Source: a virus (taxonomy: Duplodnaviria; Caudoviricetes). Taken from it: DNA of 64,000 nt. Location of the stretch: positions 130,706 through 194,705 of IMG/VR virus record IMGVR_UViG_2834368228_000004. The stretch is one strand, 5' to 3'. The notes below the pieces were generated by a model. It saw nothing but the letters and a program-made list of their open reading frames with translations. It was not told the DNA's origin and ran no database searches. How positions within the stretch are numbered: position 1 is the stretch's first letter; each line of letters starts with the position of its first letter. Both the position numbers and the translations under genes were made by a program. Shown here piece by piece: positions 1 through 32,000 of the stretch.

Positions 1-28
1 GAGATTAGAATCACTTGGATTAACATAT

Positions 29-3000
29 TTGCCACCAGCTCAAGGTAATCAAGAGTTGGTGGCAATGTTCAACCCAGTTCAAAGAAGAGATTATTACCAT
101 AATTATAACTATCAAGATAATGTGCAAAAAATGGCCCAAGTTGTGAATCAAAACAATAACAGTAAAGACATTTTTGACAACCAACAAACATATCGGTTGT
201 TGAATAGTTCGCATAGTCGTATGGGGCAAGATCAAATGCGAAAATTTCAAGACTTCTCAACTGCAAATCAATTTTTCACATTTGATATTGAAACACTTGG
301 AAATGCTCTTCATGGTGATAACTTCAGCATTTCTGAAATTGCAGTACAAGGGTTCCAGCGAAATGGAAATAAATTTAAGCCATCTAACCAAAGCTTAACA
401 CTTGTTGGATCACCATCGCAGTCTGTACAAAATGATATGATTCAAGTTATCACTCAATTACGTCAGGATCCATATCAATTCAATAAGTTGGAAGATTGGA
501 AGAAGCGTACGCTTGTTGACTTAACAAGATATTCAACTCGAACCGATGGCGGAGTAACACCTGCTGTTTTTGAAAGTCAAAATGGCAATATGATTAACTT
601 TGGTCATAACAGTTTAGCTAATACCTTCTTTAAAGATGAAAGAATGATTGCTTCAAGAGTTATTGAGAAGATGAGTAATGTGTTACAACATGCAGAGTCA
701 GGTTTAGAAAATCTAAGCGAAAATAAATATGGATTAAACTCTAATCAAATGATTGATCAATTCAATAAATTTGTTCATCAAAACAATGATAGTTATTTCA
801 TATCCTACAATGGAGATTCATTTGATATTCCAAAATTAAAGGCTTTTGGAGAGCAAGCAGGAAATAATCCTATGCTGACTCCCAATAAACATTTAGACTA
901 CTTTCGTGTTATTCAAACAACATTCCCTAATCCTTTAGATTTACATCGCTTATTAAATCAAGATGCAAGCAGACCTAGTACTGGGATGACAAAACTACAA
1001 GCATTCCGCAGTACTTTAGGATACGATACGGAAGCAGCGCACAGTGCTACTCACGATATTGGGTTAGAAGGATTAGCTGGAGTTATACAAGAAAGTAATC
1101 CTCATATTCAAGATAGAATTCAAAATGGCAAAACAAGCATTGGAGATGGATTTAATTTTCAAACTGAAAAGTTTAGTTGGAATGATGCACCAGTAGAGAG
1201 AGGACAGACTTTATTTGCTTTGGGTGGAGTTCGAGCAAGAAGAGATGGCGAATTATCCTTTGCAGCAAAGTTTGATCCAGAAACAGGTGTGTACAATCCG
1301 ATTAATGATTCTTTTAATACAACTATCATTAATGCAAAAACATTCTATGATCTGGAAGGAATCGTTGATTTATCTGATGGAAATACGAATCGATATGGAT
1401 TAAAACTTTACGATCAGGATAGAGATTTACACAACTTTATTATTCGTGAAGGCGACAATGCATTACATGAGATTCAAGACTTTATGCAAAATCGTTTCTA
1501 TAATTGGGATGGTTTAGATAAAGAAACACGTAGAAGAGTATCAGATGCTCGATTAACAGATAGTGCTAGACGGCAGTATGAACGATTGTTTAGTTTGGAG
1601 AAAGCAGGAACTGGAAGGACAGGTGGGTTTAATGCTGCTCAGCGAACGTATCAAAATGCAAAAGTTCTAGAAGAACGTCTTAGTGGAAAAGATAAAAACA
1701 TACAAGGACCTGATTATCATGCGTTAAGGCAGAATCGTATCACTCATGAAAGTATGATGGAGCAGCTTCGTTCTGGATTCGACAGCTTATGGAATCCTGA
1801 AACAAAGTCGTGGGTAAAAAATGAGAGAGAAATGGAAAACTTCTTCCGTATGGGAGAAAGACTTATTTCAGAACGGCCAGCCTTTGAACCTGCCCTAAAA
1901 TATATTGAAAGTCATTTGTCTGAGCCGACACAAAGGGATTTAGCTTGGAATCTATATACAAAGAAAGTAAATGAAGCATTCCCTATGGCAAAAGAGACTA
2001 TTCCTCTACAAGAATTTGAAAACCGAAGAGTTGGATATACAGACTTTAATACAAATACAAAACACTCTTTAGATATGAGTTCATGGAGCTCAACTGAGCA
2101 AAGCATAAGTCGATATGTTTACAGTAGAGATATAAGTCAAAATGGAGATTTAACGCCTGAATTGAGAGAAGATCGATACCGGGAGCGAATGAACCAATTT
2201 TTAAAAACATTACAAGGTAACGATGTTATAAATGAAAATACAGCTAACGAATTAATTAATATTAATAATCAAAGCGCTACAGTTAGAAATGCCATTATCG
2301 AAGCAACAGACATTTTGCAAAGTAAGGTCTTTGACTTTGATAGCACTGTTCAACAAATATCACTTGGATATAATAATGCTATTCAGCAAATGGATTTAGC
2401 AACAAATGAAATAATGTTCCAAGAAGCGGTCAAACAAGTTAGATCCATGAATCAGGTTCGAATCAACCCACAGCAAGTAACAGGTTCAAAAGTTGAATTC
2501 AGTCCAGAGGTAGAAAGAGCACTTCAGCGATTAGATCAATCTCGTTTAAGTGGATTGTCACCGAACAACAGACAAGCGTTAGAAAGTGTTTTGTCTAGTG
2601 TTGTAGGAAACAGCAAATTTAATCAACATCATGTTGCTTTAAGCATGGACCAGCAAACAGCTAATGCTAGAATTTCCATTTACAATCCATCAAATAGTAC
2701 AAGCGTGATTGACGCTATCAGCAGTGGACAGGAGCACCCCAATGCCCTAAGCATTAATGTTCCTTTAGTTGGAGAACATGGTGTACATCAAATTGGAAAT
2801 AGACGTATTAACGCAAGAAGATACATGGATTATCAAGATGGCCAGTTTGTAGTAAGGTCTTCCACTCAACAGCTTGCAGATAATTATACTCGTAATATGA
2901 ACCGAATCTTAAGAGATTTTGATGAAGGGGATATCGAAGGTGCCAATAATCGTGCCAGAAGAGTTCTAAATGAAAGCTTAAGAAATCTTTCTGGAATACA

Positions 3001-6000
3001 GAGAAACTTAACATCTAATGATAGCTTCAACATGAACAATAACCAATCTGACTTTTTCAAACAAGGAAATGTTGAAGTTGATACAGCAATGGTTAAAGAT
3101 TTATATGCAAGAAACAGACTGACAAATGATGATTTTTATACAACAGCATTTGAAGGTGGAAGGTTAAGGCCAGATGTATCAGTAAATGATTTAAAGCCTG
3201 CCAAAGCATATGAAGTTTCATTAGCAGCTGGAGATTGGTTAAGAGATAACAATTTAAATCTCTTTGCAGGAACAAATAAAGGTGAACATGTATCTCAAAT
3301 GATGTTTAACGAACTGGATATTCGAGAATTTCTACCTTATGGTCATTATACGTTCCAAGGTCGAGATAACTCTGTTCAGTTACAAAATGCTCATTTATTA
3401 AACGCTCAAGTGCAAGAAAACATCTTAAATAATACAGAAGGCTATGTGAGCTTTAATGAACTAGTTGCTACTAATAAACAACGAGAATGGGTTAATCATT
3501 GGAGACAAACAAATCCTTCAGACGCAGCAGGAATGCAAATAAAAACAGCCTTCATTAACGATGGAACATTAATGGATCGAATAAACTCACTTTCTGAAAC
3601 AGAAAAAGGTTTAGATCTTCTGCGAGAAGAGGGAATTATCAATGCAGATGGATCATGGAACCACACAAAAATCCCACGTATATATGAACAACAAGGATTG
3701 ATTTCTCAGGACTTACAAGAGCAGGTTAAAGTAACAGAGCAGAAGATTTTATCTGAAACGGACGATGTAACACTATTTCGTAATTCAAGAAATGGAGATA
3801 CTGTTCAACCGGGGCAGGCAATAGGATATGAAATGATTAATGGGTATCAAAGAGAGTTGCGATATCAAGGTCCTAACCCAGGTACCGTTATCCAGCAGAA
3901 TGGTCGTGTAGGTGTTGCGTGGGAAGAAGATGCCTTCAAGTATATCGTTGAAGGGGAGAAAATGACAGATGTTCCTATCAGCAGACGTTTAATGTCCGCT
4001 ATAACCGGTGATGATTCCGTCAGTATGATTCTTAACCCAAACATTAAAAAGCACCGTGACTATGGTATGTTCTTGTCAGGAAAAGCAAAAATATTAGCAG
4101 ACTATGCGCATCAATTAAGTAATGATTTAGTTCAAGCTACAATAGATGCTCCTGTAACAGATAAAGCAAGCAGAAAAGCGTTAAGACGTATGGAGTTAGA
4201 GACTCAGTTTAACCGAACCATAAATCTCGCTTCAACAGTTGGTCTTCATTGGGATGCAAGTAGTAGGTCATTCATTCAAGAAGGAAACCCAAATATACCA
4301 GCAAATAGTTTTGAAAATATATTTGAAGAGCTCGGTTTGGTGGATAGGGATGAGCAAGGAAATGTTCTCCGAAGAATCGACCAATCATCTTTAGGTGACG
4401 AACTTGCGATTCTTGAAGCAAGAGTAAGTAAAGTAAGTAATCACAGTAAAATGATAGATGAAACAGGCCGAATCGTTTTAGAAGTGGGTCATGATAGAGA
4501 TGGTAATATAACGAAGAAATACCGTCGTAATGATTTAGGACAGTTTGAGCATGGTGGAGTGAGCTGGGGTCATCGAGAAATGGGGGTCTTTAAAGACCTA
4601 AATCTCACTGAAACCTATAATAAAGTATATGAAACGATGATGACTCAAGCTCAACAGAATAATAGATTAAATGAAACAAAGAGTATGATTGCAGCTGTTA
4701 GTGGAGCTGTCAATGAAAACCATACATTGGTTTCTGATGCTTCGACATTAAGTGTTGATGATTTTAGATCTCTTCCTGAAATTGATCGTGATACAAATAC
4801 GTATCAACAGACTATTTTTGATCGAGACTACATTGAACGACTGCATGGTAATAATAATGCTCACGGATTTTGGTTGGAGCTCCCAGGTGTTCAGCAAACA
4901 AATGGCGACACAAGAAGAGTGACTGCAAACATAAATGGAAGCAGTGGGGAAAGACAAGCATTAAATCGAATTTTCATTCCATTTACTAACTTAGAAGGAG
5001 CTAATGGAGAAGTTCACTTAAGAGAGCTTCAACGTAGCATTGGTGACATTTACAGGAGAGCAGCAGATGTAATTGGCGCAGGTTCCATTGATGAACGAGC
5101 ACGCTCGATGGACGGTTTGCAGGGTGCTGTGGATCGATACTTTGATCAAACAGTAAAAGATATCACTTCTTCTAAAGGACAAACAGGGAGCAGTGTATTG
5201 AAAGCTAGCATGCCTTCATCTGGAAGCGGCCTGTTTAAATTATTAGATCCATCTGTATCAATGGCGCTTGAAGGTGAATTTACATTTATTTCACCAGATG
5301 ATGCGAAGGCGCTAGGTGTTTATGATAAGTTAAAAACAATTGAGGAGCAGCGGGTAGCTGGAAAGAGTATAGATGATTTAATGGTGATGAATACTCGTTA
5401 TCCAGTGTTCCATAGTGATGCTGTTCAGATTTCAAAATTGCGTGTAAGTGAAGACGCAAGAAAAGGAGAGTTTTTAACTACTTCTTGGCAATCTGATTTA
5501 ATGAAGGCTGACTCCGATGGTGACTATAACAACATTGTTGTCTTAGATGATGATAACATCCAAAAAGAGTGGAGAAGACAATATAATTTACAAGAACAAA
5601 ATCGAGAACAAGCATATCTGGAACAGCTAGGAGATTCTGCTAGAAGCGGACGAGGATTTAATGCAGAGTATGTGCTTGGAGATAATGATGCATTTCGTCC
5701 TTTTGATCCAAATACGCAAGAGGAAATGGCAGCGAAAATTGGTAAACGGGTAGTTGGTTCTGCATCTAACTTAAACTTATATATGAGACAAGTTGCTGAC
5801 CAATATCTAAATCATGGTTCAGAAGAGCGCAGAGCTATTTACGAAATGGGTCAGGATTTAGAGCAAAAGCTTATTTCTTCAAAACATGGATTAACCGTAG
5901 AAGAGGGTCGTGCTCCTGCTATTGAAATGATTAATTCGGTATACAATAATAACTTCAGTGAAGCCAGAAAAATACAGCAAAAGTATTTTAAAGAAGACTT

Positions 6001-6787
6001 CAATTTAGAAATGATGGAAAAAGCTTTCTCTGGTTTAAGTAAAGCATATGAAAACCTAGACCAAGGCCTATATAATCCTTCACTAAAGTTTGGTACATCA
6101 CGAGGATTGAACACAGATGTCGGATTAAAAAATATCCATGACTTACTTCAAGGAGAAGCGGCCATGCATGAGACTGTTCAAACGAACAGCACATTGCGAA
6201 TGCTTCAAAACATTTTAGGAGTAGATAATCAGCAAACATTTACAGACATGGAAGGGAACTCTCATGTTCGAGTAGACCCATATGAATCCAGAAACGCCCA
6301 TATGCGTTCTGATCGATTAGGTGGCATGCAAGGAGCTATTCAGGAATATGGAGTAGATTTATCCGGCGGCTCTGAAGGATTTGGAAACAAGATTTCAGAT
6401 TTGATGGATACTGTTAATAATAATCGAAACTTTAAGTGGGGAATTATTGGAGCGGGGCTTGCACTTGGAGCTCTGGGAGGATACAATATTCTTAGACATA
6501 AAGATCCAATCGAGGCTCCACAAGATGAAATGCATTACACAGTTAACAACTCACCTGTTCAGCCAGCAATAGATATGAATCAAGGGAGCTATTCAGCAAA
6601 TGCTGATATAAGTGTTAATGCACGAGGTGGATCTTTAAATGACAACGAATTGGCACATATGATAAATCAAGGAATGGTAGATTCACAAATGAATCCTAGC
6701 AATCCACGAATAACAATTAACACAACTGATAATACACAGCAGCTTAATCGTTTCTGGTATAGAGATAAGATTGAGGAGAATGTGTAA
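29..6787 (+). CDS. Giant protein: N-terminal DEDDh exonuclease + single-chain two-barrel (beta/beta-prime-like) RNA polymerase + C-terminal hydrophobic segment; probable virion RNAP. May be 5'-partial
   Basis: Exonuclease motifs FDIE (D86/E88), YNGDSFD (D266), HSATHD (H338/D343). RNAP motifs in colinear order: VPLVGEHG, LPYGHYTFQGR, GMQIKTAF, KYIVEGEK, MILNP..R, GGVSWGHRE, DIYRR, LQGAVDRYFD, TRYPVFH, KADSDGD, EQKLISSKHG. The frame is open from nt 2, so the true start may lie before the window. Confidence 0.85.
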   Translation: MPPAQGNQELVAMFNPVQRRDYYHNYNYQDNVQKMAQVVNQNNNSKDIFDNQQTYRLLNSSHSRMGQDQMRKFQDFSTANQFFTFDIETLGNALHGDNFSISEIAVQGFQRNGNKFKPSNQSLTLVGSPSQSVQNDMIQVITQLRQDPYQFNKLEDWKKRTLVDLTRYSTRTDGGVTPAVFESQNGNMINFGHNSLANTFFKDERMIASRVIEKMSNVLQHAESGLENLSENKYGLNSNQMIDQFNKFVHQNNDSYFISYNGDSFDIPKLKAFGEQAGNNPMLTPNKHLDYFRVIQTTFPNPLDLHRLLNQDASRPSTGMTKLQAFRSTLGYDTEAAHSATHDIGLEGLAGVIQESNPHIQDRIQNGKTSIGDGFNFQTEKFSWNDAPVERGQTLFALGGVRARRDGELSFAAKFDPETGVYNPINDSFNTTIINAKTFYDLEGIVDLSDGNTNRYGLKLYDQDRDLHNFIIREGDNALHEIQDFMQNRFYNWDGLDKETRRRVSDARLTDSARRQYERLFSLEKAGTGRTGGFNAAQRTYQNAKVLEERLSGKDKNIQGPDYHALRQNRITHESMMEQLRSGFDSLWNPETKSWVKNEREMENFFRMGERLISERPAFEPALKYIESHLSEPTQRDLAWNLYTKKVNEAFPMAKETIPLQEFENRRVGYTDFNTNTKHSLDMSSWSSTEQSISRYVYSRDISQNGDLTPELREDRYRERMNQFLKTLQGNDVINENTANELININNQSATVRNAIIEATDILQSKVFDFDSTVQQISLGYNNAIQQMDLATNEIMFQEAVKQVRSMNQVRINPQQVTGSKVEFSPEVERALQRLDQSRLSGLSPNNRQALESVLSSVVGNSKFNQHHVALSMDQQTANARISIYNPSNSTSVIDAISSGQEHPNALSINVPLVGEHGVHQIGNRRINARRYMDYQDGQFVVRSSTQQLADNYTRNMNRILRDFDEGDIEGANNRARRVLNESLRNLSGIQRNLTSNDSFNMNNNQSDFFKQGNVEVDTAMVKDLYARNRLTNDDFYTTAFEGGRLRPDVSVNDLKPAKAYEVSLAAGDWLRDNNLNLFAGTNKGEHVSQMMFNELDIREFLPYGHYTFQGRDNSVQLQNAHLLNAQVQENILNNTEGYVSFNELVATNKQREWVNHWRQTNPSDAAGMQIKTAFINDGTLMDRINSLSETEKGLDLLREEGIINADGSWNHTKIPRIYEQQGLISQDLQEQVKVTEQKILSETDDVTLFRNSRNGDTVQPGQAIGYEMINGYQRELRYQGPNPGTVIQQNGRVGVAWEEDAFKYIVEGEKMTDVPISRRLMSAITGDDSVSMILNPNIKKHRDYGMFLSGKAKILADYAHQLSNDLVQATIDAPVTDKASRKALRRMELETQFNRTINLASTVGLHWDASSRSFIQEGNPNIPANSFENIFEELGLVDRDEQGNVLRRIDQSSLGDELAILEARVSKVSNHSKMIDETGRIVLEVGHDRDGNITKKYRRNDLGQFEHGGVSWGHREMGVFKDLNLTETYNKVYETMMTQAQQNNRLNETKSMIAAVSGAVNENHTLVSDASTLSVDDFRSLPEIDRDTNTYQQTIFDRDYIERLHGNNNAHGFWLELPGVQQTNGDTRRVTANINGSSGERQALNRIFIPFTNLEGANGEVHLRELQRSIGDIYRRAADVIGAGSIDERARSMDGLQGAVDRYFDQTVKDITSSKGQTGSSVLKASMPSSGSGLFKLLDPSVSMALEGEFTFISPDDAKALGVYDKLKTIEEQRVAGKSIDDLMVMNTRYPVFHSDAVQISKLRVSEDARKGEFLTTSWQSDLMKADSDGDYNNIVVLDDDNIQKEWRRQYNLQEQNREQAYLEQLGDSARSGRGFNAEYVLGDNDAFRPFDPNTQEEMAAKIGKRVVGSASNLNLYMRQVADQYLNHGSEERRAIYEMGQDLEQKLISSKHGLTVEEGRAPAIEMINSVYNNNFSEARKIQQKYFKEDFNLEMMEKAFSGLSKAYENLDQGLYNPSLKFGTSRGLNTDVGLKNIHDLLQGEAAMHETVQTNSTLRMLQNILGVDNQQTFTDMEGNSHVRVDPYESRNAHMRSDRLGGMQGAIQEYGVDLSGGSEGFGNKISDLMDTVNNNRNFKWGIIGAGLALGALGGYNILRHKDPIEAPQDEMHYTVNNSPVQPAIDMNQGSYSANADISVNARGGSLNDNELAHMINQGMVDSQMNPSNPRITINTTDNTQQLNRFWYRDKIEENV

Positions 6788-6799
6788 GGAGGTTCTTTA

Positions 6800-9700
6800 A
6801 TGGCTACAACATTAGCAGTTGATGACCGGGATTCCCGTTATGGGGTCCTCGGTGATCATTATATGCGTATTGGAGATACACAGTTTTATTTACCTCCAAC
6901 AGATATAAAAGTACATCGAATGATGAAGAATCAAAAGGTTTCTGTAATGCGAGGGAAAAACAGCTTGCCGAAAGAGTCTGGCTATTTTGATCGAGTAATA
7001 ACACTAACTATCTTCTTCCCAGATGTAAGGTCTATAAATGATGAGTTAAGACCTCTATTGGCACAAAGTAAAAAGTGCCCATTTTTACCAATAGAAAACA
7101 CTTATTTAAATGATGCACATAAGGTAGAAGCAATTACAATACAGAATGTTACAGTGCAAACCACACCAGGTTTTCCTAATACATTGCAGGCAATTATTCA
7201 ATGTTATGCATTTGAACCAGCTGCGTACATATATGGTTCTACTGAAAAGACATTTGATGAGATGTTTCATTGGCCATTATTTAGATGGTATTATGGCAGG
7301 CATTTAAAAAAGGTAAAAGTTGTTGATCCTGTCTTCAAGCAATTGTTTGGCAGTAATTCAGATAAGCAATTAACTTACTTTGAGCCTGTAAGTGGAGAGG
7401 TGACAAACGATTTTCAGTTTCGTATTGTAGCTGAAGATGATTTGTTAGCAATACGTGAATGGAACAAAGAGAAGAAAGAGCTAATTAAGGCTTGGCAGGA
7501 AGATAAGAATGGGTCTAGCTTAGGTGATTTCTTCAAAAATGCTATCAGTTCAAAGAAAGATGGAGCTAAGCCTATAACGAAAAAAGGCAAAGAACAACAG
7601 TTTAATGAAGAATATGATGAGTTATATTCAAAAGCAATGTATGAATATGATTTGCATTATGAAACTTGGGACTTAGGAAGAATGGAGCTAGAAGACTTTA
7701 GCATAAGTTTTGAAAACTCTATTTCATCTTATCAATTGCAGATGCATCAATCTCCTGCACACCAATATTTAGGTTCTCAGGATACTGTAATTGTAGCACG
7801 ATTTAAGACAGATGATATGGAGTCTGTTGCCAGTTTAGAAGATCTTATGAGAAGGACATCCTATCTGACACGTGAATACCACAAAGAAGTTTCAAATGGT
7901 TTCCTTGAGATTGACCATCAATTAGCAAGGCTCTATGGAGTGAAAAGTGTTGTCATTGATGATGTAAGTATCAATACAATAGAAGGTATGCCAGGTGTGT
8001 ATGACATTACATTGACCTTAATGGCTTATAATCGTGCTGAAAAGAAAATGCATGAAGTAAGTGCAATGACTTTGGGGTTAGACTGGGATGCAAGTGGTAC
8101 TATTGTAAATCCATACTTACAAAATGCGATGGCAGGATTTAAGAAAATACACACGTCTATTGGAATACAGCAAAATGCAGAACAACAAGCTATTTATAAT
8201 GAACATGTTATTAATGCTTTTCGTGCGGCAGAACTTTATCCAGACTTAGAGCTTCCAACATATGATGAAGTAAGAGAAGCTGGATTTAGTTTAATAAATA
8301 ATAACAATGGAGTCTTTGTAGATCCAGACTTTTTTATAAAGTATGATAGTTTTCAAGACTATGCTCAGCTATTAAGCGAATCTATTGATTCAGGAAGCAG
8401 CGACATCAAAATGTATGATGCCACTGGAGGAACTGCTACGGTTACTAAAGGTGGATTAAAGCTTGATGAAGTTGCTGATAGAAAAGTAGAAGAAATGAAG
8501 ACTATTACAAAAAACAGTGTTCCGAATCTGGGTGTTTCTGAAAACGTCAATGCAAATCAAGATACTACAAATCGTTCTACCCTTGAGATGGAAGCCTTAA
8601 TAAGAAAATCTGCACAGGTATATGAAATTCCTGAAATCTATCCAATAGCTTTTGCGAAAGCATTTGACTCCAAGTTAAGGCATTTTTATGAAGTGGGAGA
8701 CAATCCTGAACTTGGTGGGATCTATAATAGTAGTGCTGGCTCTCCAATTTTTATGGGGTCCAATTTAAACCTTCTAGGTGGAGATAGATCTGCGGATTAT
8801 GCAGGTGTTATGCGTGTTTCCAATCAATATGGGGATGCTAAATTAATTAGTAAAAGCATAGAGTATAATGTTGATGTTGGAATGCGTTACATGAAGTACT
8901 ATTGGGAAGTTGCAGGTTCCATGATGGAAGATGAGAGAATTAATACAGATCGCTTGCATCAAATGTTAGATATTCCTAATACGAGTTTAGACGATAGCTA
9001 CAAAGCGCAATTCATTCTTATGTCTGCTCTCTATTTGCAACATGACCGAGAAATTCTTGCAGTGATGAATAAAGGGCAAGAACCGAGAGCAAGTATCCTT
9101 CGTATTTATGAGCACTTACTAGATGTATTGGATGGAACAGAAGCATGGGGATATGAAAAGTTGCAGAAAGAGTATGGGAAGCTAAAAGTGCAAGATTACA
9201 AGGCCACCATCTATACCGTTGATGATGACAATCCAACTCTTAATATTAAGCAATCTGATATCGATATTGAAGATACAACAGAGTTAGAAAAAACAATGAT
9301 GCATGATATGCTTGAATATGACCGTAGAGGGAGACTTGTTAGGGCTTTCCCAACATTTTTTATGACATTTATTGATGAAGGACAATTTGTAGGAAGTGCA
9401 AAAATGTCAGACCAGTACTTTCACTACAGAGCAATTAGTGACATTACATACAATAATAGTCGGAAGCAAGCTTCCAGTACACTAGTGTGTGAATTAAGTA
9501 ATGTATTCGGCTCCTTAAGTGATAGTGAGAAAGCACAAGATTTAACGCATACTTCATTTGGCGATATGTTCCTTGCATCAATTATGCCAGGCGCTGTTGC
9601 AAAAGCTCAAGAGAGAAGCAGACATCGAAATTCTAACTTCTATAAGAGTATTTATCTTCGTACAGGTGTTAGGGTTCACATGAGAATGGGATATGGAGCA

Positions 9701-12700
9701 AACGCTGCTGAACTGCCAACTATCATGAATGGAACTATAACAAGTCTTCAAAATAATGGAGCAACCATAACAATGATTGCTCAAGACGATGGAATAGAGC
9801 TTACGAATAAATTAAATGCAATGATGGATATTGATCCACAAGATGAAACCAGTGGATTTTTAAGCTCCAAAAAAGAGCCAACGGAAATTATCGATGAGCT
9901 ATTAACTGACTCACGAGGATTATGGTCAAACATTTCTGCATCACTAAGCAACAAAGAATATCAAGATCATGCACTTGGTGTAATGCATTTCGGTGAAACT
10001 GGATTACCTCAAGGAATTGCAGACTTTAAAGATTTATTTACACTTGGAATTATGGAGAGCAGGGATCGGGCTGAAGTAAATATGAATGTTTATCAGACGA
10101 CGGGGCTCCTTCATGAAGATCAAAGCAAATGGTACAACCGATTAAAGGATGGTCTTGGAATTGGAGAATCAGATGAGGTAAATATTAATATTAACCTTTA
10201 TGATAAGACGATATGGGATGTTCTAAACATTGGAGCATCAGTCGGGTCTGACATGATAACAGCGGTCCATCCATTTGGTTTAAGAAGTACTATCTTTTTA
10301 GGGAAACCATACTTCCCAATCACCTATGGATATAAAGTTGACTTAGAATCAGAAAAAGTTGTTGGTGAGAAAATCAAGTCGTTCAAACAACTGCATTCTT
10401 ACGATAGTTACACATCCATTATTAGTAATGGGATTAAAGCTACGGAAGACAATATGTATACTGTTGCAGTAGGGGCATATAACAATGAGGGTAAACTGAA
10501 TGTAACCCCACCAGTTTATGTAGATAGTAATATATGGCCAGAGAAACAAAAGACAGTAAATATTGATACAACATTGAATGCTAAAGGAGTAGCAGCGTTA
10601 GGGGCAGTTCCCTTTATTGGAGATATGTTAAATAAACCAGCTAAATGGTTCTTTGATGAAGGTGTTGCACTTAAAATAACTGCTGCAGGACTACGTGATT
10701 TTGTAAAAGATATGTATGATGGTTATTTGACGGTTCCTGGTGATCCCTCTGTGAAGCCTTACGACACAATGCTACTTCAAGACTTTTATACAGATATGGT
10801 TGGTCCCGCAGATATGAAGGAGATTATTCACGTTATGAATCACGATGTAGGATTCATAACAATGATAAAACCTGATGTAATTGCCTACAATGAAGATCAA
10901 ACTATTTTTAATACCATTGCACGAGCGATGACAGTTGTAGCTTATGCTGCCACTAGAATGATTGCCCACAATATTTTAAAAGCAAAAGGATATACAGGTT
11001 CATTTCCTATTTTAAACGCAGTCTGGTCAAGCACAAAAGAAAAGATGGGTAAAGCTCATCGAACATTTAAAGGAACCGCTTCTAAGGTAACAAATAGAAT
11101 ACCGCAGCTTGATATTGACCGATGGAAGAAAAATGGAACATTTGATAGTCTCTCTAAATCCTTTGGTAATGTTTCTAAGAAAGACTTAGAAGACCTGTTG
11201 AAGAAAGGGCAATTAAATGCATCTAAAACAATAAAAGATTTCAATAAGAAGTATCCTAACTTAAATAAAAAAGCAAGTACAGTTTTATTGAAGGGTGAAA
11301 AGGGAGCTAAGAAAGTTTTGAGTGGTGGAAAGGCTTTGGGATCTGTAGTTAAAGGAGCTTGGAAAGCAAAGCACGCTTTATTAGGACCTGCAGGTATTGT
11401 AACTTTAGCAATAGAAAGTGTAGTTGTATCAGCTCTTAGCTCAACAGTTGGTGAGTTTACTGAAAGATTTTTAATGAATAGGCAAGCTGTAATTATTGTT
11501 CCTCTGAAAAAAGATGGATTTGAGTTCACTGCAGGTATAAATGGAAATAAAGGTTCAGTCGAATCCATACCAGAAGATTTAACAAAGTTTTATGAACATC
11601 TTCCTGGACCGCTTTTAGATATGTATATAAGTGCAGAAAGTGCAAACAGTGAAGATGCAGGAGCTAGATTATTTTCAATTCGAAGTGCTTCATCTCAAAA
11701 AACAGTTGATTTAAGCACCATTTTGAATGGACGGATATCTTCCAGTCATATGTATAAAGATAATGGACTTATTGAAGAGATGTATAAAACAGATGTAGCA
11801 GCAGCAGAGAAAGAGATTGCAGAGCGCTTAGAATATTTAGTTAGCATGACACAAGAAGCTCAAAATGTTCAATATACTCATCTTCAAGAAAAGGATTTGA
11901 GTGCTCAAAGTATTTTCTCTAACTTCCTCAATCTGTTGTTTAAGGGCAGTGATACAGAGACCGAGCAGTGGGATGGTACAGGAAGTATTTCACTTAATGG
12001 TAAAGCTGTTAATCTATCAAAGTATTTTAATAAGCTTGGACCGATGATCGATAAAGAAACAGAAAGACAAGGTGTTCCCCAGTATGCGGAAATATTAAAA
12101 GCAAAAACAATGCAAGAATCTGGTGGTAATTATGAACGATATCCAGATGTCATGCAGTCATCAGAAAGCTTAGGACTCCCTCGAAACTCTATCGGTTTAA
12201 GTCGAAGTTTAGAGCAAGGTGTAAAATACTTCATACAGATGATGAATTCAGCAGGTGGAGATGTCGCCCTAGCTATGCAAGCTTATAACTATGGTGGTGG
12301 ATTTATCAACTATGTTAAAGAGCGTGGTGGAGCATGGACACAAGAATTAGCAAATGCTTTCTCTGACATGAAAGCAAGCCAATTGGGTTGGAAAAGATAT
12401 GGAGATAAAAATTACATTAAAAATATCATGCGCTACTATGAATATCCAAAAGGTGGAACAGATGACGCACCATCCACAATCGGGTCAGAAGGAAGGTCAA
12501 AATATCGATTGAGTTTAAGTCAAGCTAAAAGTCAATTGATTGAAGCTAGAGAAGCTAATGATAGAAAGTTTAATGTTACATTAGTTGGATCAAGTACAAG
12601 CTTGATGAGAAAAGGCACATTTGATTTATTAAATCAAATAGCTCAGGATTATAAAAAGTCTACAGGGAAAACAATTAATATTACAAGTGCTTATCGAGCA

Positions 12701-12982
12701 AATGATCCAAACTGGCATGGTACTGGATATGGGGTAGATATTGATACCCCCAATACAATGAGAAGACTTTCTGGAGGAAAGCTTGGATTTCCAAACGGTA
12801 ATGATAAAAATGAAGCAGTCAAGTTGATTGAAGCATCTATTAAAGCAGGTTTTAGTGGAATTTATTTTGGAGATTGGTTCATTATTGAAAATATGAAACG
12901 CAAATATCCCAAAGTACAATTCACCTATGAACCAAATAATCATCATAATCACTTGCACTTATCATACCCTCTCAAAGGATAG
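6800..12982 (+). CDS. Baseplate hub / tail-associated peptidoglycan hydrolase (degenerate SLT-like, GH23 lysozyme-like and M15 peptidase domains)
   Basis: RBS AAGGAGG. C-terminal MQESGG..DVMQSSES..QAYNYG (CwlT-like lysozyme domain) followed by ITSAYR..HGTGYGVD..HNHLH (Zn peptidase M15). Sits directly before the spike and baseplate genes. Confidence 0.8.
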   Translation: MATTLAVDDRDSRYGVLGDHYMRIGDTQFYLPPTDIKVHRMMKNQKVSVMRGKNSLPKESGYFDRVITLTIFFPDVRSINDELRPLLAQSKKCPFLPIENTYLNDAHKVEAITIQNVTVQTTPGFPNTLQAIIQCYAFEPAAYIYGSTEKTFDEMFHWPLFRWYYGRHLKKVKVVDPVFKQLFGSNSDKQLTYFEPVSGEVTNDFQFRIVAEDDLLAIREWNKEKKELIKAWQEDKNGSSLGDFFKNAISSKKDGAKPITKKGKEQQFNEEYDELYSKAMYEYDLHYETWDLGRMELEDFSISFENSISSYQLQMHQSPAHQYLGSQDTVIVARFKTDDMESVASLEDLMRRTSYLTREYHKEVSNGFLEIDHQLARLYGVKSVVIDDVSINTIEGMPGVYDITLTLMAYNRAEKKMHEVSAMTLGLDWDASGTIVNPYLQNAMAGFKKIHTSIGIQQNAEQQAIYNEHVINAFRAAELYPDLELPTYDEVREAGFSLINNNNGVFVDPDFFIKYDSFQDYAQLLSESIDSGSSDIKMYDATGGTATVTKGGLKLDEVADRKVEEMKTITKNSVPNLGVSENVNANQDTTNRSTLEMEALIRKSAQVYEIPEIYPIAFAKAFDSKLRHFYEVGDNPELGGIYNSSAGSPIFMGSNLNLLGGDRSADYAGVMRVSNQYGDAKLISKSIEYNVDVGMRYMKYYWEVAGSMMEDERINTDRLHQMLDIPNTSLDDSYKAQFILMSALYLQHDREILAVMNKGQEPRASILRIYEHLLDVLDGTEAWGYEKLQKEYGKLKVQDYKATIYTVDDDNPTLNIKQSDIDIEDTTELEKTMMHDMLEYDRRGRLVRAFPTFFMTFIDEGQFVGSAKMSDQYFHYRAISDITYNNSRKQASSTLVCELSNVFGSLSDSEKAQDLTHTSFGDMFLASIMPGAVAKAQERSRHRNSNFYKSIYLRTGVRVHMRMGYGANAAELPTIMNGTITSLQNNGATITMIAQDDGIELTNKLNAMMDIDPQDETSGFLSSKKEPTEIIDELLTDSRGLWSNISASLSNKEYQDHALGVMHFGETGLPQGIADFKDLFTLGIMESRDRAEVNMNVYQTTGLLHEDQSKWYNRLKDGLGIGESDEVNININLYDKTIWDVLNIGASVGSDMITAVHPFGLRSTIFLGKPYFPITYGYKVDLESEKVVGEKIKSFKQLHSYDSYTSIISNGIKATEDNMYTVAVGAYNNEGKLNVTPPVYVDSNIWPEKQKTVNIDTTLNAKGVAALGAVPFIGDMLNKPAKWFFDEGVALKITAAGLRDFVKDMYDGYLTVPGDPSVKPYDTMLLQDFYTDMVGPADMKEIIHVMNHDVGFITMIKPDVIAYNEDQTIFNTIARAMTVVAYAATRMIAHNILKAKGYTGSFPILNAVWSSTKEKMGKAHRTFKGTASKVTNRIPQLDIDRWKKNGTFDSLSKSFGNVSKKDLEDLLKKGQLNASKTIKDFNKKYPNLNKKASTVLLKGEKGAKKVLSGGKALGSVVKGAWKAKHALLGPAGIVTLAIESVVVSALSSTVGEFTERFLMNRQAVIIVPLKKDGFEFTAGINGNKGSVESIPEDLTKFYEHLPGPLLDMYISAESANSEDAGARLFSIRSASSQKTVDLSTILNGRISSSHMYKDNGLIEEMYKTDVAAAEKEIAERLEYLVSMTQEAQNVQYTHLQEKDLSAQSIFSNFLNLLFKGSDTETEQWDGTGSISLNGKAVNLSKYFNKLGPMIDKETERQGVPQYAEILKAKTMQESGGNYERYPDVMQSSESLGLPRNSIGLSRSLEQGVKYFIQMMNSAGGDVALAMQAYNYGGGFINYVKERGGAWTQELANAFSDMKASQLGWKRYGDKNYIKNIMRYYEYPKGGTDDAPSTIGSEGRSKYRLSLSQAKSQLIEAREANDRKFNVTLVGSSTSLMRKGTFDLLNQIAQDYKKSTGKTINITSAYRANDPNWHGTGYGVDIDTPNTMRRLSGGKLGFPNGNDKNEAVKLIEASIKAGFSGIYFGDWFIIENMKRKYPKVQFTYEPNNHHNHLHLSYPLKG

Positions 12983-27572: not shown

Positions 27573-29081
27573 GTGTTAGATATGCCTGATTTAGACGAAC
27601 AAAAATATGTGCGAGTAGGCGAATCAACAGATACAGACTTAATTATTAAGGGACCTCAAAATATCATTGTAAATCAAGTTGTTTTAGACTTTGAAGAAAC
27701 CTATATTTTTCCTAAAGAGCCATCTTTATATCAGAGTGAAGAGCCAACTAACTTACAGTTTCACTTAGAGAATATAAATGAAAAAACATCTGTGACAATT
27801 CCATATCGTAATCGATTGACCCATACGGAAGCAAAGTATGCATCACTCTACCAATATGATATTGAGCTAAATAAATGGGAAACAATTGATTTCTTCCATA
27901 ATCAAGAGGAGAAGACATTCGAGTGTGAAGTAGCCAAAGATGGATATTTAGTTGTATTCACAAACACATATTGGTACTCAACAATCACGCAAAAGCTTGC
28001 AGATGAATATCCTCAATGGACAAGGATTCGTAAATACAAGGAAAGTATAGGACAGCAGTTTCTAAACTTCTATGGAATGAATTTTGAAGAAGTCGAATCC
28101 TGGTTAAATTGGATTGATGACCAAAAGCATCTAACAAAGACAGATGTTCATGTTTTAGATTGGGTCTATGTATACCCATTAATAGAAGTTAAACAAAATG
28201 ATATCATTCAATTGTTTTACCAAAAAGAGAGTCAGACACATATTATTCCAATCATCGAAGATATTAAGGGCTTCTTTAATAACGACACAAACCAGGGTGG
28301 AATGATTGATTATGAGGATCGTAGGTTTTATTCAAAATCAATGATTGATGAAATTAGAGGGATAGTTCGAAATGAGAATGGTATCAAAGAATTTAAATCA
28401 AACCCTATACCCTATCACATCTGGAATACCTTTGATGAATTTGGATTGCTCTTAAATGTAAAACGTCTTCATCTAGAGAACAATAAAGATTTCAAGGAAA
28501 GATTGTTAGATGTATTCCGATATCCTGCAAATAGTTCTAAGACAGGTATTGGACATGGCATAGCAAGAGAGTTAAATCTCATTAAGCGAACGAATGGAAA
28601 AGAGCTCCTTTGGGAGAACGATCAAAAATCATTGCTGATACATAATAGGAGCGGGCTTCCGATTGACATTGATAGCCTACGAGTAGACTATCAGCCGTTA
28701 AGCGACGATCAATATGAGATTCTTAATAACAAGCATATTTTAATTCATCCATTAAGGAGATATCAAAAGCATATTATCAGCTTCATTTATGGATTAGATA
28801 AGCATGAATTGCATAATAAGAATGATATTAATTTACAAAAGATGATGTATCAAGAAAACGGCCAAGCAACTGGTAAGCTAATCGAATGGGTGTCTTATAT
28901 CAATACGGTGGCTCCAATAATGTGGAATCGGTTTAAATGGGATGAAGGATACTGGGATACCGTTTCTAAAGAATTATCAGGGCTTGGCTATATTCCAAAC
29001 ATGTGGGATAGTGACATGTCAGTTTGGAAAGATTATAAGTTTCTTATTAATAGATGGGAGGATGGGCAGATATGGAAATAG
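27573..29081 (+). CDS. Virion/baseplate structural protein
   Basis: WNTFDEFGLLLNVKRL..ENNKDFKERLLD resembles a baseplate wedge motif; position in the module. Confidence 0.55.
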   Translation: MLDMPDLDEQKYVRVGESTDTDLIIKGPQNIIVNQVVLDFEETYIFPKEPSLYQSEEPTNLQFHLENINEKTSVTIPYRNRLTHTEAKYASLYQYDIELNKWETIDFFHNQEEKTFECEVAKDGYLVVFTNTYWYSTITQKLADEYPQWTRIRKYKESIGQQFLNFYGMNFEEVESWLNWIDDQKHLTKTDVHVLDWVYVYPLIEVKQNDIIQLFYQKESQTHIIPIIEDIKGFFNNDTNQGGMIDYEDRRFYSKSMIDEIRGIVRNENGIKEFKSNPIPYHIWNTFDEFGLLLNVKRLHLENNKDFKERLLDVFRYPANSSKTGIGHGIARELNLIKRTNGKELLWENDQKSLLIHNRSGLPIDIDSLRVDYQPLSDDQYEILNNKHILIHPLRRYQKHIISFIYGLDKHELHNKNDINLQKMMYQENGQATGKLIEWVSYINTVAPIMWNRFKWDEGYWDTVSKELSGLGYIPNMWDSDMSVWKDYKFLINRWEDGQIWK

Positions 29082-32000
29082 ATGAAAATGTTAATCCTGA
29101 TTCATTTGAAAGAGACGATGCTTATGAATTGGGACGAAACGATGAAGATTTTGAAATAGATCCTTGGGAAGATAAAAGAAGCAGGAAGGACCCTATTACT
29201 TCTAAAGGTCAATCAACATTACTTCACACTCAAGGAAAAGAGAGCTATGAAGAAGTTAATGCCATTCGTTCAGGGATAGGAGATAACGATGATTTATATG
29301 TTAAAGTCCCTCAAGAAGAAGTCATTGAAGAATCCTTTCAATATGCGGCACGTCATCGAGGGAGAAAAAAGCACGAGACTGTTATTTACTCAGAAATACC
29401 TTTTGAATATGGCATTCACTATAAAGGGGAAGAGCTAGTAACTGATAATGAACAACCTTATGACCATCGTGTTGATGCATATCCGGGTAAGACAATGAAA
29501 TATGAGGTTACACAAAAAGACCCTCAGCCAACGAAAAGAAATTGGGAAGCTCAGATGAATGTTCATTCTAGGGTAAAGCAAGACATTTTAGAGTATGCGG
29601 TTAATTGGAAGGGAAAAGCAGCCACTGAAGCTGTTTCGGGTGCTGCTGACTTGTTTACAAGTGCCAATGGACACTTTATCGGACCTGGGCCAAGATCTGT
29701 TTGGAACAAGTCAGGTAACTTTGTCAGGGAAATTGACAACCGCTCCCATGCTAGTGGAATCATCGCAAAAGAGTTTTATGATTGGTCAGATTACGAAGCT
29801 GAGTATGAATTTAAAACAGTAAAAGCAACTGGTCTTCGTGATGATCCAATAACAAAACGTGTTACCTCTGATGGCCGTTTAATAGATGAGCCAGGTGCAG
29901 ATGATGACGTATTGGGATTCATTTTTCGTGCAAAGAGTAACCGAAAAGATTTTTACATTTTTGTGTGGGAAGGTGACGACTTATTAATTAGTGGATGGAG
30001 ACCAGGAAGCCTTAGTGGATATAATATGCTCACAGGTAATATTTCTGGTTCGTATTCTCATACGAAAGCAGAAAATCAATATGCCAAATTTATGGGCAAT
30101 ACAAACCTTTCACGTATAGGAGTAAGCAACTACTACAGTGGAATGCGTTTGTCATCTGCACAGTTGGCAAACTACCGATCCCTGCAGAACGATCAAGGTT
30201 GGGGTAAGCAGCATTACAGAGTGTATAAAGTAACCAATGGCGTTATGCGTCAAGTGAATCTAACTTATAGTGGTAACGGCAGAGGTTGGAGACAAGATTG
30301 GGCAAACATGAATTGGAAAAATAGTGTAAAAATACGATGCACTGGCAGAGAAGTTAAAATATATACACAAAGCTACAAGCAAGGAAACTATAAGCCAGAT
30401 GGATATCAGCTTGCAGCACGATTTAATGTAAGTAGTGGCTTTAGTAGTGGGAGTGTAGGGCTTGCAACTTTCTCTCAATCCGTACAGTTTGAAAAGATAT
30501 CTGTAACTAGGTGGGATAATATATCAGGTAGAAAGCCTGAAACAGGGTGGAATACGTATAAAGACCCAGGTTCTAAACAAATATCTTCATCGGGTAGAAA
30601 CTATGTGAATAGTGATGCAAGAGCAGCCGCTAGAAGTCAAACTGGTTTAAGGAATCCAGATTATGAAATAACAAGTGTTACTGGTGTGATTAGAGACAAA
30701 TCAAAAGGAACAATGAGTGCCTCATTAAATAATCCAGTGACAGTGCGAACAAATAACCCACAAGATGCAGGAGAGATACGGACTCATGCTATTGTAAAAA
30801 AAGGAAGTGTAACTATCACTCCTGAAGAAATATCACCAGCTACGGCTCAAGTTGTTTTCACAAGTGCTAATTCTGTTTTTGGAAAGGATTTAAAGAATTA
30901 TATAAACAAAAATCCTAACCTTATCTTTGAGAATTATGATTTGCAAATTAATGTTCCTTCTAATCCGCTAGATGACTGGGACCTAGAAGGTGAACGGTTC
31001 ACGATGTGGAGAAGAAATCCAAAGGTCATTGAAACAACTAAATCATTTGAAGATAAAGTCTACGCATACCAAGGATGGATTCAATCTATTGATTGTAGAA
31101 AAGAATTTGATGGTTTAAAGTGGGCAACGTATCATTTGAAGCCAATCGACCAAACAATCAATGATGATTATGATGAGATTGAATTGAAAAATGAAAAAGT
31201 CTACATGAAAACAACAGAATGGTATATGGGAACATATCCAGCTGATATCAAAAGTGATGGAATTGTTACAAATAAAAAACATGTATTTGTTGATATTCCT
31301 CCAATGCCAGAACACTATGTGGAACCAACCACAGAAGAAGTGATGTATCATGGATATGAAGATGTAGAGTTTCTTTTGATTCAGATTAAGCCTAGCCTAA
31401 CGAATGAAGTATGGATGGGATTCAAAAGCAGCTTTAATGAAATGAATACTAATATTACAGCTCAACCTATCAATATTATAAATGGGAGACCCATTATAAA
31501 AACAAATAAAATTAATGACCAAGTAGAAATACATTGTGAAGATAGACCAAGGCTAGTTCCTTGGACATCAGGGAAGTACATCGGCTATGGGAAGGTTAAC
31601 GGTAGAAGACCATTCTTTAAAGATGGATTAGGTAAAGCAGATATGATTGATGTTCCTACCGATGTTGTTTATATACCTGACCATTTAATTAGTGTTACAG
31701 GACCATATATTGACGTAAGTGATGAACGAATAAATTACAGAATTCATCAAACTAATGATACAGTTGATTTTTCTTCAAACTATATGGATGCATACATTTG
31801 GTTTACAGATTGGTATAGCGAATGGAAAGAATGTAATGATATTTTTAAAGTAAAATCGAATGAAGTTCTTTCCATAGATGACCCAATCAAATTAGACTTA
31901 AGCAATGACCAAACATATGATATGGCTGACACTATTATTGATAAGTTTGAAGTGATTAGTACGAATCCATTTGTTGATGTATGGACAGAAGATGTAAGAG

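What the first reader, a model, noticed from the sequence alone, without database searches (positions are those of the whole stretch)
270..1070. DEDDh 3'-5' exonuclease fused N-terminally to the RNA polymerase
Seen: complete ExoI (FDIE), ExoII (YNGDSFD) and ExoIII (HSATHD) motifs, with a long insert between ExoI and ExoII. DnaQ-like proofreading domains normally accompany DNA polymerases, while two-barrel RNAPs proofread by intrinsic or Gre-assisted cleavage. Possible roles (inference): transcript trimming, processing of injected genome ends, or a co-injected anti-defence nuclease. The frame is open before nt 29, so more domains may lie upstream.
Basis: partly seen in the sequence, partly recalled or inferred. 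Interest (0 to 1): 0.7.

Follow-up and report, generated by a model that had tools for sequence, protein, structure and literature searches.

The report
Exonuclease fused to injected phage RNA polymerase
The first ~380 residues of a 2,267-residue tail-module protein of a ~200-kb Bacillus-type phage form an intact DnaQ-like 3'-5' exonuclease that is always fused to a cellular-type RNA polymerase, a combination not described before, whose substrate (genome DNA end or nascent RNA) is still unknown.

Summary

The same chain carries a beta-then-beta'-like two-barrel RNA polymerase, confirmed independently by fold search. It ends in a hydrophobic segment and lies at the tape-measure position of the tail module.

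The fusion is obligatory. All 90 long relatives have both parts, whether they were found from the exonuclease side or the polymerase side. Three cultured Bacillus phages carry it. It is not an assembly artefact.

Function is inferred. I favour trimming of a 3' end of the entering genome, with RNA 3'-end trimming for the fused polymerase a close rival.

Databases already label some members "RNase H-like", but I found no paper describing the fusion. The scan noted this same stretch before, on the same genome only.

The parts
2..6787 (+). Giant ORF (2261 codons in the window; full protein 2267 aa, 6 codons lie before the window). Order: exonuclease, ~700-aa unknown region, beta-beta' RNAP, hydrophobic segment, conserved C-terminal tail. 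No cysteine.
212..1129 (+). DEDDh (DnaQ-like) 3'-5' exonuclease domain, the confidently modelled part (aa 71-376)
281..292 (+). ExoI motif FDIE (D95, E97), followed by T.G
   Evidence: D and E 66/66
470..739 (+). About 90-residue helical insertion between strand 3 and strand 4 of the exonuclease fold. Carries conserved R/D/Y (RTLVDLTRYS at nt 506-535) and a near-invariant Gly.
   Evidence: secondary structure and pLDDT; conservation (Y 62/66, G 64/66)
806..826 (+). ExoII motif YNGDSFD (N270, D275), nearly identical to ExoII of archaeal family-B DNA polymerases
   Evidence: D 66/66; aligned to Pfu / Deep Vent / Tgo polymerases
1040..1057 (+). ExoIII motif HSATHD (H347, D352; H-x4-D, the 'h' type)
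   Evidence: H and D 66/66
3236..6163 (+). Single-chain two-barrel RNA polymerase: beta-like half, then beta'-like half. RYPVFH at nt 5396-5413, catalytic DSDGD at nt 5510-5524, SSKHG at about nt 5876-5890.
   Evidence: AF2 model; Foldseek; VIA; R, P, D, D, D 66/66
6437..6493 (+). Gly/Ala/Leu-rich hydrophobic segment, a candidate membrane segment
   Evidence: seen directly in the sequence, not modelled

Best explanation
SHOWN. Nt ~212-1129 encode a catalytically intact, Mg-type DEDDh 3'-5' exonuclease domain with a conserved helical insertion. It is the obligatory N-terminal module of a 2267-aa, cysteine-free protein. The C-terminal half of that protein is a single-chain beta-beta' RNA polymerase followed by a hydrophobic segment. 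The gene sits between the tail chaperones plus a ~2000-aa partner and the hub/lysin and baseplate genes of a ~200-kb Bacillales myophage or phage-plasmid.

INFERRED. As with the tape-measure-fused polymerase of Thermus phage P23-45, the protein lies in the tail lumen and is ejected into the host ahead of the DNA. Tape-measure proteins have their C-terminus at the tail tip, so the N-terminal exonuclease is the part nearest the leading DNA end. It would enter the cell last, together with that end.

My preferred mechanism is that the domain binds and trims the 3' strand of the entering genome terminus. Limited 3'-5' resection would leave a 5' single-stranded tail. Such a tail could (a) make the end a poor entry site for AddAB/RecBCD-type nucleases, and/or (b) expose complementary strands of the terminal repeats for annealing into a circle or concatemer.

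The substrate assignment (DNA rather than RNA) is the weakest step.
For: Identity:
- Fold matches.
- Motif invariance 66/66.
- Pfam, NCBIfam and PADLOC hits.

Obligatory fusion:
- A profile search of 1.84 billion representatives returned 80 proteins. Of these, 66 are 2100-2730 aa with the domain always at residues ~70-650.
- The short hits are almost all collinear fragments of long members.
- Searching from the polymerase side gave 46/46 proteins of 2226-2729 aa.
- All 90 long proteins hit the exonuclease HMM.

Polymerase.

Tail-module position and virion status:
- Downstream are a lysozyme-carrying 2060-aa protein and baseplate wedge proteins.
- In cultured Bacillus phage vB_BceM_WH1 the homologue gp095 follows two 'tail chaperonin' genes and is annotated 'virion structural protein'.
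- In phage KLEB27-3 the homologue is annotated 'structural protein' and lies next to a 'putative baseplate protein'.
- The gene at this position in phage 0305phi8-36 was assigned as the tape measure (PMC2147016).

Ejection logic: the P23-45 model (PMC10770324).

Lean towards DNA:
- The weak sequence matches are mostly DNA-type enzymes: PolB exonuclease, Pol III epsilon, PolC and the 'DEDD exonuclease' family, and CRISPR-associated DEDDh (E 4e-6).
- The highest identities among structural hits are to epsilon, TREX2 and a CRISPR DnaQ domain (18-19%), against 10-13% for ERI / 3'hExo.
Against: - No activity data exist for any member.
- The absolute linkage of exonuclease and polymerase over deep divergence (down to ~21-25% identity) fits a transcription-coupled role at least as well.
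- Virion location rests on annotations of relatives, not on data I could read (searches found no papers).
- End structure and terminal repeats of this genome were not examined.
Confidence: 0.4

Rival explanations
1. RNA 3'-end nuclease for the fused polymerase. The domain removes the 3' end of nascent RNA that is misincorporated or extruded by backtracking. This would rescue arrested complexes or proofread in trans, as nsp14 ExoN (also DEDDh) does for the coronavirus RNA polymerase. Only a few molecules are injected per infection, so an arrested polymerase would be fatal, which would explain the strict conservation.
For: - The fusion is absolute from both search directions.
- The exonuclease pentad and the polymerase DxDxD triad are together the most conserved positions of the protein.
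- YonO, a single-chain two-barrel polymerase of a Bacillus prophage, has no detectable RNA hydrolysis or proofreading (PMC5467207). Simplified enzymes can therefore lack the intrinsic activity.
- RNA-acting DEDDh enzymes (3'hExo, ERI1/3, RNase T, Orn) are among the top structural matches.
Against: - About 700 residues of unknown structure separate the domain from the polymerase core.
- This polymerase is of the beta/beta' type and keeps a conserved S-S-K-H-G element where a trigger-loop His would lie. Intrinsic cleavage may therefore be present. This is inference from motif position only.
- The sequence-level relatives lean towards DNA enzymes.
- I know of no precedent in any DNA-dependent RNA polymerase.
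Confidence: 0.3
2. Co-injected host-takeover or anti-defence nuclease. The domain degrades host or defence nucleic acids with free 3' ends (for example host RNAs or DNA/RNA guides of defence systems). It uses the ejected protein only as a delivery vehicle.
For: - Delivery at the very start of infection, by the position and ejection logic.
- DEDDh enzymes are used by viruses against host sensing. Arenavirus NP is an example (papers listed; not read).
Against: - Very few molecules per cell, probably tethered by the C-terminal hydrophobic segment.
- Accessory anti-defence modules are usually variable between relatives, whereas this one is invariant in 90/90.
- The only defence-library similarity is a weak match to CRISPR-associated DEDDh, in 3 of 7 members.
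Confidence: 0.12
3. Template maker. The exonuclease resects the entering duplex to give the sigma-less polymerase a single-stranded template, since other virion polymerases prefer single-stranded DNA.
For: The crAss-like phage virion polymerase gp66 transcribes single-stranded or denatured DNA efficiently, did not transcribe double-stranded M13 DNA and only weakly its own native genome (10.1101/2020.03.07.982082). From my own knowledge, N4 virion RNAP uses single-stranded hairpin promoters.
Against: The polarity is wrong. A 3'-5' exonuclease starting at a terminus removes exactly the strand that serves as template for genes transcribed inward from that end. The 5' tail it leaves can only be transcribed outward, off the end. 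Promoter-independent 'tailed-template' initiation needs 3' tails, which a 5'-3' exonuclease makes. This is reasoning from established enzyme polarity, not a test.
Confidence: 0.08
4. The domain is a catalytically silent structural or DNA-end-holding module. Alternatively, the two-barrel enzyme is really a proofreading DNA polymerase, like archaeal PolD with its exonuclease subunit.
For: PolD shows that two-barrel polymerases can synthesise DNA and work with a 3'-5' exonuclease (PMC7281927 listed; PolD mentioned in PMC10770324).
Against: - Invariance of all five catalytic residues argues for catalysis.
- The invariant R in R-Y-P-x-x-H corresponds, by motif alignment from my own knowledge, to the beta' arginine that contacts the NTP 2'-OH.
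- All listed structural hits are RNA polymerases.
Confidence: 0.05

Closest known systems
DEDDh exonucleases of the DnaQ superfamily: E. coli exonuclease I (1FXX/4HCC), Pol III epsilon (1J53/2IDO), PolC exonuclease, TREX1/2, 3'hExo/ERI1
   Different: - Only 10-19% identity.
- The window's own sequence falls just below Pfam's curated cut-off (21.7 against 22 bits).
- A ~90-residue conserved helical insertion lies between ExoI and ExoII.
- ExoII looks like that of family-B DNA polymerases, which are normally of the DEDDy type.
- It is never free-standing and never attached to a DNA polymerase; it is always the N-terminus of a ~2300-aa RNAP protein.
Thermus phage P23-45 gp96, tape-measure-fused virion RNA polymerase (PMC10770324)
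   Same: Giant protein at the tape-measure position carrying a two-barrel RNAP with DxDGD and membrane segments towards the C-terminus. It is proposed to transcribe entering DNA.
   Different: - No sequence similarity detectable (profile against PDB sequences).
- In gp96 the polymerase itself is N-terminal, and the paper mentions no nuclease (0 occurrences).
- This polymerase's listed structural hits are subunits of multisubunit (beta/beta'-type) RNAPs, whereas gp96 belongs to the phage/RNAi clade in that paper's dendrogram.
- Host is Bacillales and the tail is contractile.
Coronavirus nsp14 ExoN with the nsp12 RNA polymerase
   Same: A DEDDh exonuclease dedicated to an RNA-synthesising polymerase. 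This is the only established case of exonucleolytic proofreading of RNA synthesis (own knowledge).
   Different: nsp14 is a separate protein with zinc fingers and an nsp10 cofactor, and it serves an RNA-dependent polymerase of the palm type. Here the protein has no cysteine at all, the polymerase is DNA-dependent-type two-barrel, and any coupling is unproven.
Archaeal PolD (DP2 two-barrel catalytic subunit plus DP1 exonuclease)
   Same: A two-barrel polymerase associated with a 3'-5' exonuclease.
   Different: DP1 is an Mre11-like phosphoesterase, not DEDD, and is a separate subunit. The enzyme makes DNA. No PolD chain appeared among the listed fold hits, which is inconclusive.
Phage T4 gp2 and other injected DNA-end protectors (own knowledge)
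   Same: A virion protein that enters with the leading DNA end and protects it from RecBCD-type nucleases. This is the function I propose as one outcome of limited resection.
   Different: gp2 binds ends and is not a nuclease. There is no sequence or fold relation, and the resemblance is functional speculation only.

Membership tests
DEDDh (DnaQ-like) 3'-5' exonuclease superfamily | ExoI D-x-E, ExoII D, ExoIII H-x4-D | tested here: met
   D95/E97, D275, H347/D352. Invariant 7/7 and 65-66 of 66.
DEDDh (DnaQ-like) 3'-5' exonuclease superfamily | RNase H-like alpha/beta fold carrying those residues | tested here: met
DEDDh (DnaQ-like) 3'-5' exonuclease superfamily | Match to curated family HMMs at the curated threshold | tested here: inconclusive
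   Window sequence: RNase_H_2 21.7 bits against a cut-off of 22; RNase_T 16 against 24. Relatives reach E 1e-6 (RNase_H_2) and 1.4e-5 (RNase_T). PF13482 / PF16473 are precomputed on several homologues.
DEDDh (DnaQ-like) 3'-5' exonuclease superfamily | Metal-dependent 3'-5' exonuclease activity | not testable with these tools
   Needs a nuclease assay with a D95A/E97A control.
Pol III epsilon / PolC proofreading subunits proper | Membership of the epsilon/PolC sequence families and association with a DNA polymerase | tested here: not met
   NCBIfam epsilon models match only at E 0.01-0.15, each in 1 of 7 members, and PolC at E 0.063. The attached enzyme's fold matches RNA polymerase subunits.
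Two-barrel (beta/beta'-type) RNA polymerases | Two double-psi beta-barrels; R-x-P-x-x-H and (N/K)-A-D-x-D-G-D in the beta'-like barrel | tested here: met
Virion / tape-measure-position RNA polymerases (P23-45 gp96 type) | Encoded at the tape-measure position of the tail module | tested here: met
   Baseplate and lysin genes lie downstream. In phage WH1 the order is tail chaperonins, a 2025-aa protein, then the homologue. The 0305phi8-36 gene at this position was called the tape measure.
Virion / tape-measure-position RNA polymerases (P23-45 gp96 type) | Sequence homology to gp96 | tested here: not met
   A profile of the polymerase part finds no PDB sequence at E<=10 other than two chance hits. 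Per the paper, gp96 fragments were solved as crystal structures.
Virion / tape-measure-position RNA polymerases (P23-45 gp96 type) | Physical presence in the virion and ejection into the host | not testable with these tools
   Only GenBank product names of relatives ('virion structural protein', 'structural protein'). No paper found.
Coronavirus nsp14-type proofreading ExoN | DEDDh domain with inserted zinc fingers, acting on the RNA 3' end made by its polymerase | tested here: not met
   No cysteine in 2261 residues, so zinc fingers are impossible. Action on RNA is untested.

The most novel reading that the evidence does not exclude
The domain is a dedicated 3'-5' exoribonuclease that clears mismatched or backtracked RNA 3' ends for the fused beta/beta'-type polymerase. 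That would be the first exonucleolytic (non-active-site, Gre/TFIIS-independent) proofreading or arrest-rescue device of a DNA-dependent RNA polymerase, a DNA-virus counterpart of coronavirus nsp14.
Probability: 0.28. Interest if true: 0.9.

Novelty: new variant of a known kind. Interest (0 to 1): 0.65.

Why it matters
All known cellular-type RNA polymerases correct or rescue transcripts with their own active site, helped by Gre/TFIIS-like factors. A DnaQ-type exonuclease permanently welded to such a polymerase, and conserved as strictly as the polymerase's catalytic aspartates, is unexpected.

Either reading would be new. It may be a new way of editing or rescuing transcription. Or a phage may inject a nuclease that works on its own genome end at the moment of entry, for end protection or circularisation of a ~200-kb genome.

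The family is widespread in ~190-225-kb elements of Bacillus, Priestia, Paenibacillus and Virgibacillus. It is present in three cultured Bacillus phages, so both readings can be tested with ordinary biochemistry and phage genetics. Current annotation of this protein is either 'tape measure / structural protein' or 'RNase H-like domain protein', and both miss the combination.

Tried and rejected
- Megablast of nt 1-8000 against phage records: no match.
- No whole genome is held for the window.
- The genome-contig scan with the family alignment found no relative.
- phmmer/profile searches of the whole protein and of the polymerase part against PDB sequences gave nothing useful.
- tblastn of the polymerase C-terminal part against phages: no match. 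0305phi8-36 itself was not recovered by any tblastn, so I cannot say whether its orf146 carries the domain.
- ESM Atlas look-up of the ~700-residue middle region (aa 381-1085): no usable hit.
Instead I showed with local BLAST that the short hits are collinear fragments of long members. Exceptions are P0084, which looks like an ordinary small DEDDh enzyme, P0070, which gave no BLAST match to any long member, and the weakly matching P0087. I could not confirm that the fragments touch contig ends.
- PADLOC gave only a weak CRISPR-associated DEDDh match. NCBIfam gave only weak epsilon / PolC / DEDD matches.
- I considered and rejected 'the exonuclease makes a single-stranded template' on polarity grounds (see rivals).
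- I rejected 'assembly artefact' because the fusion recurs in 90 independent proteins.
- I rejected 'more domains upstream' because only 6 residues are missing.
- Literature searches for an exonuclease fused to a virion or two-barrel RNAP found nothing. Subscription-only papers are not covered.
Full report
**What is at the coordinates**

The window opens inside one long frame, nt 2-6787, giving 2261 residues and no stop.
- YNGDSFD at nt 806-826 (D275).
- HSATHD at nt 1040-1057 (H347, D352; H-x4-D spacing, the DEDDh type).

ExoI and ExoII are 180 residues apart. That is roughly twice the usual spacing, which I quote from memory.

**Is it a real exonuclease domain?**

Single-sequence HMM hits are weak but consistent: Pfam RNase_H_2 at E 1.5e-3, PolB exonuclease, and PHROG 'exonuclease' families.

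I collected relatives in three steps. There were 7 full-length proteins at 30-58% identity, 6 IMG/VR loci and 5 metagenome loci. I then aligned the N-terminal 400 residues as alignment A2.

Scanned individually against Pfam:
- 6 of 7 members hit RNase_H_2 (best E 1e-6).
- 5 of 7 hit the PolB exonuclease domain.
- 4 of 7 hit RNase_T (best E 1.4e-5).

An AlphaFold2 model built from A2 is confident for residues 12-317 of the piece, with most 10-residue blocks at pLDDT 85-94. The following ~85 residues are disordered.

Fold searches gave:
- Foldseek finds RNase T, TREX1, oligoribonuclease and PARN.

The extra ~90 residues between strand 3 and strand 4 fold as a confident helical subdomain with a small hairpin. 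They carry conserved residues: an R..D..RYS helix and a near-invariant Gly.

**Conservation**

A profile search of 1.84 billion cluster representatives returned 80 proteins. Of these, 66 are 2100-2730 residues long, with the domain always near the N-terminus.

In those 66:
- D, E, D, H, D are 66/66 in the N-terminal alignment, and 65-66/66 in the whole-length alignment.
- Only 22 columns of the entire protein are at least 95% conserved.
- Ten of them are in the exonuclease domain. Five belong to the polymerase motifs R-x-P and D-x-D-x-D.

This is the signature of an active enzyme, not a decayed fold.

**The partner**

I tested the polymerase claim independently. Alignment A3 covers residues 1079-2054 in 10 sequences. 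It gave a model of mean pLDDT 71.6.

- Foldseek returns 358 PDB chains at E<=1e-3. Those listed are RNAP beta' chains (Thermus, E. coli, Mycobacterium, plastid, Pol II) and beta-type chains (vaccinia Rpo132, Pol I A135, Thermus beta).
- The motifs R-(Y/F)-P-T-(F/I)-H and (K/N/R)-(A/G)-D-x-D-G-D are those of the beta' barrel.

So the chain is a beta-like half followed by a beta'-like half. No sequence-level similarity to any solved polymerase was detectable.

**Is the fusion real and conserved?**

Yes.
- From the exonuclease side, all long hits carry the polymerase motifs.
- From the polymerase side, 46 of 46 homologues are 2226-2729 residues.
- All 90 long proteins in hand match the exonuclease HMM.
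- The short hits align collinearly with the N-terminal parts of long members, so they look like fragments. One (P0084) looks like an ordinary small DEDDh enzyme, and one (P0070) matched no long member.

The proteins come from Bacillus cereus group, B. licheniformis, B. atrophaeus, B. velezensis, Priestia megaterium, Paenibacillus (one labelled plasmid) and Virgibacillus. They typically sit on contigs of 190-225 kb.

Three cultured phages carry them:
- vB_BceM_WH1 gp095, which shows DIENIG, NINTYD, HMALQD and DHDGD.
- Edson.
- vB_BauM_KLEB27-3 gp034.

Some database entries already name the protein 'ribonuclease H-like domain-containing protein', 'DNA polymerase III epsilon subunit-like' or 'predicted PolB exonuclease-like 3'-5' exonuclease'. 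The exonuclease half has therefore been seen by pipelines. The polymerase half has not been annotated.

**Upstream domains**

The full protein is 2267 residues with an invariant Met at position 1. Related loci have a stop just before it.

**Context**

Downstream genes:
- A 2060-residue protein with a lysozyme-like domain.
- Baseplate wedge proteins, tail proteins and virion structural proteins, all on the + strand.

In WH1 the order is two tail chaperonins, a 2025-aa protein, the homologue, then another giant structural protein.

In 0305phi8-36, which earlier notes of this scan name as a relative, the gene at this position was assigned as the tape measure (PMC2147016). I could not confirm homology to that gene.

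The protein ends with a Gly/Ala/Leu hydrophobic segment and a conserved tail, and it has no cysteine.

**Mechanism**

Shown:
- an intact DEDDh domain;
- obligatory fusion to a beta/beta' polymerase;
- a position in the tail module.

Inferred by analogy with P23-45 gp96 (PMC10770324) and with the known orientation of tape-measure proteins (C-terminus at the tail tip; my own knowledge): the protein is ejected C-terminus first. The N-terminal exonuclease is then the part adjacent to the leading DNA end.

I rank the hypotheses as follows.

1. *Trimming of the 3' strand of the entering genome end (0.4).* The result would be a 5' tail that hinders AddAB/RecBCD-type entry and/or allows terminal-repeat annealing. 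This is favoured slightly because the sequence-level relatives are mostly DNA enzymes and because of the position next to the DNA end.

2. *RNA 3'-end trimming for the fused polymerase (0.3).* The absolute linkage of the two catalytic centres favours it. So does the fact that YonO, a simplified two-barrel polymerase, lacks any intrinsic RNA hydrolysis (PMC5467207). Against it are the 700-residue spacer and a conserved trigger-loop-like S-S-K-H-G element.

3. *A delivered anti-host or anti-defence nuclease (0.12).*

4. *A template maker for a polymerase that prefers single strands.* crAss gp66 has that preference. I consider this unlikely (0.08) because a 3'-5' exonuclease removes the very strand that serves as template for inward transcription.

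5. *A silent domain, or a PolD-like DNA polymerase (0.05).*

**Comparison with the known, and novelty**

- The domain is a member of the DEDDh superfamily by motifs and fold. It is not a member of the epsilon/PolC families.
- The whole protein works like the virion/tape-measure polymerases. It is not detectably related to gp96 in sequence, and its listed structural hits are subunits of multisubunit (beta/beta'-type) polymerases.
- The P23-45 paper mentions no nuclease (0 occurrences of 'nuclease' or 'exonuclease').
- The crAss gp66 preprint has no occurrence of 'nuclease'. The jumbo-phage survey (PMC7824862) mentions an exonuclease only in the context of DNA polymerases and notes only the YonO-like enzyme in 0305phi8-36.
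- Full-text searches for the combination found nothing.

I therefore rate it a new variant of a known kind: a virion-type two-barrel RNA polymerase with a built-in DnaQ-like exonuclease. Function is open.

The scan had already noted this same stretch on this same genome, and on no other DNA.

**Limits**

- There are no activity, virion-proteome or transcript data.
- The middle 700 residues are uncharacterised.

Noticed in passing
window 1142-3256 (aa ~381-1085 of the same protein): About 700 residues between the exonuclease and the polymerase have no Pfam, PHROG or ESM-Atlas match. They are nevertheless conserved, including near-invariant columns D526 and P927 (full-protein numbering), and aa 62-728 align to phage WH1 gp095. 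Fold and role are unknown.
   Followed up: partly
window 2-6787: The 2261-residue product contains no cysteine at all, so the zinc sites of cellular beta' are absent. It ends with a hydrophobic Gly/Ala/Leu segment (nt 6437-6493) and a family-wide conserved tail, LNRFWYRD (nt 6743-6766).
   Followed up: partly
window 6800-12982: A 2060-aa protein directly downstream matches PHROG 20474 ('endolysin') end to end and carries a Lysozyme_like/SLT domain near aa 1747-1881. It is probably the hub/tail lysin, equivalent to the 'hyperplastic gp27 hub' of 0305phi8-36.
   Followed up: partly
window 29054-35287, 35324-41905, 45752-50218: Three further giant virion-module proteins carry adhesin-type domains: PA14 + GLEYA + Big_1 + invasin D3 (2077 aa); thrombospondin type-3-like calcium repeats (2193 aa); and a C-terminal von Willebrand A domain (1488 aa).
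   Followed up: no
homologues P0091-P0104: The family sits on ~190-225-kb contigs in genome assemblies of cultured Bacillus, Priestia and Paenibacillus strains, one explicitly labelled a plasmid (Paenibacillus urinalis). This suggests that many of these jumbo phages persist as phage-plasmids.
   Followed up: no
window 806-826: The ExoII motif YNGDSFD(I/L)P is almost letter-for-letter that of archaeal family-B DNA polymerases (Pfu, Deep Vent, Tgo), although ExoIII is of the His (DEDDh) type rather than the Tyr type used by family B. The domain thus has a mixed motif signature.
   Followed up: partly
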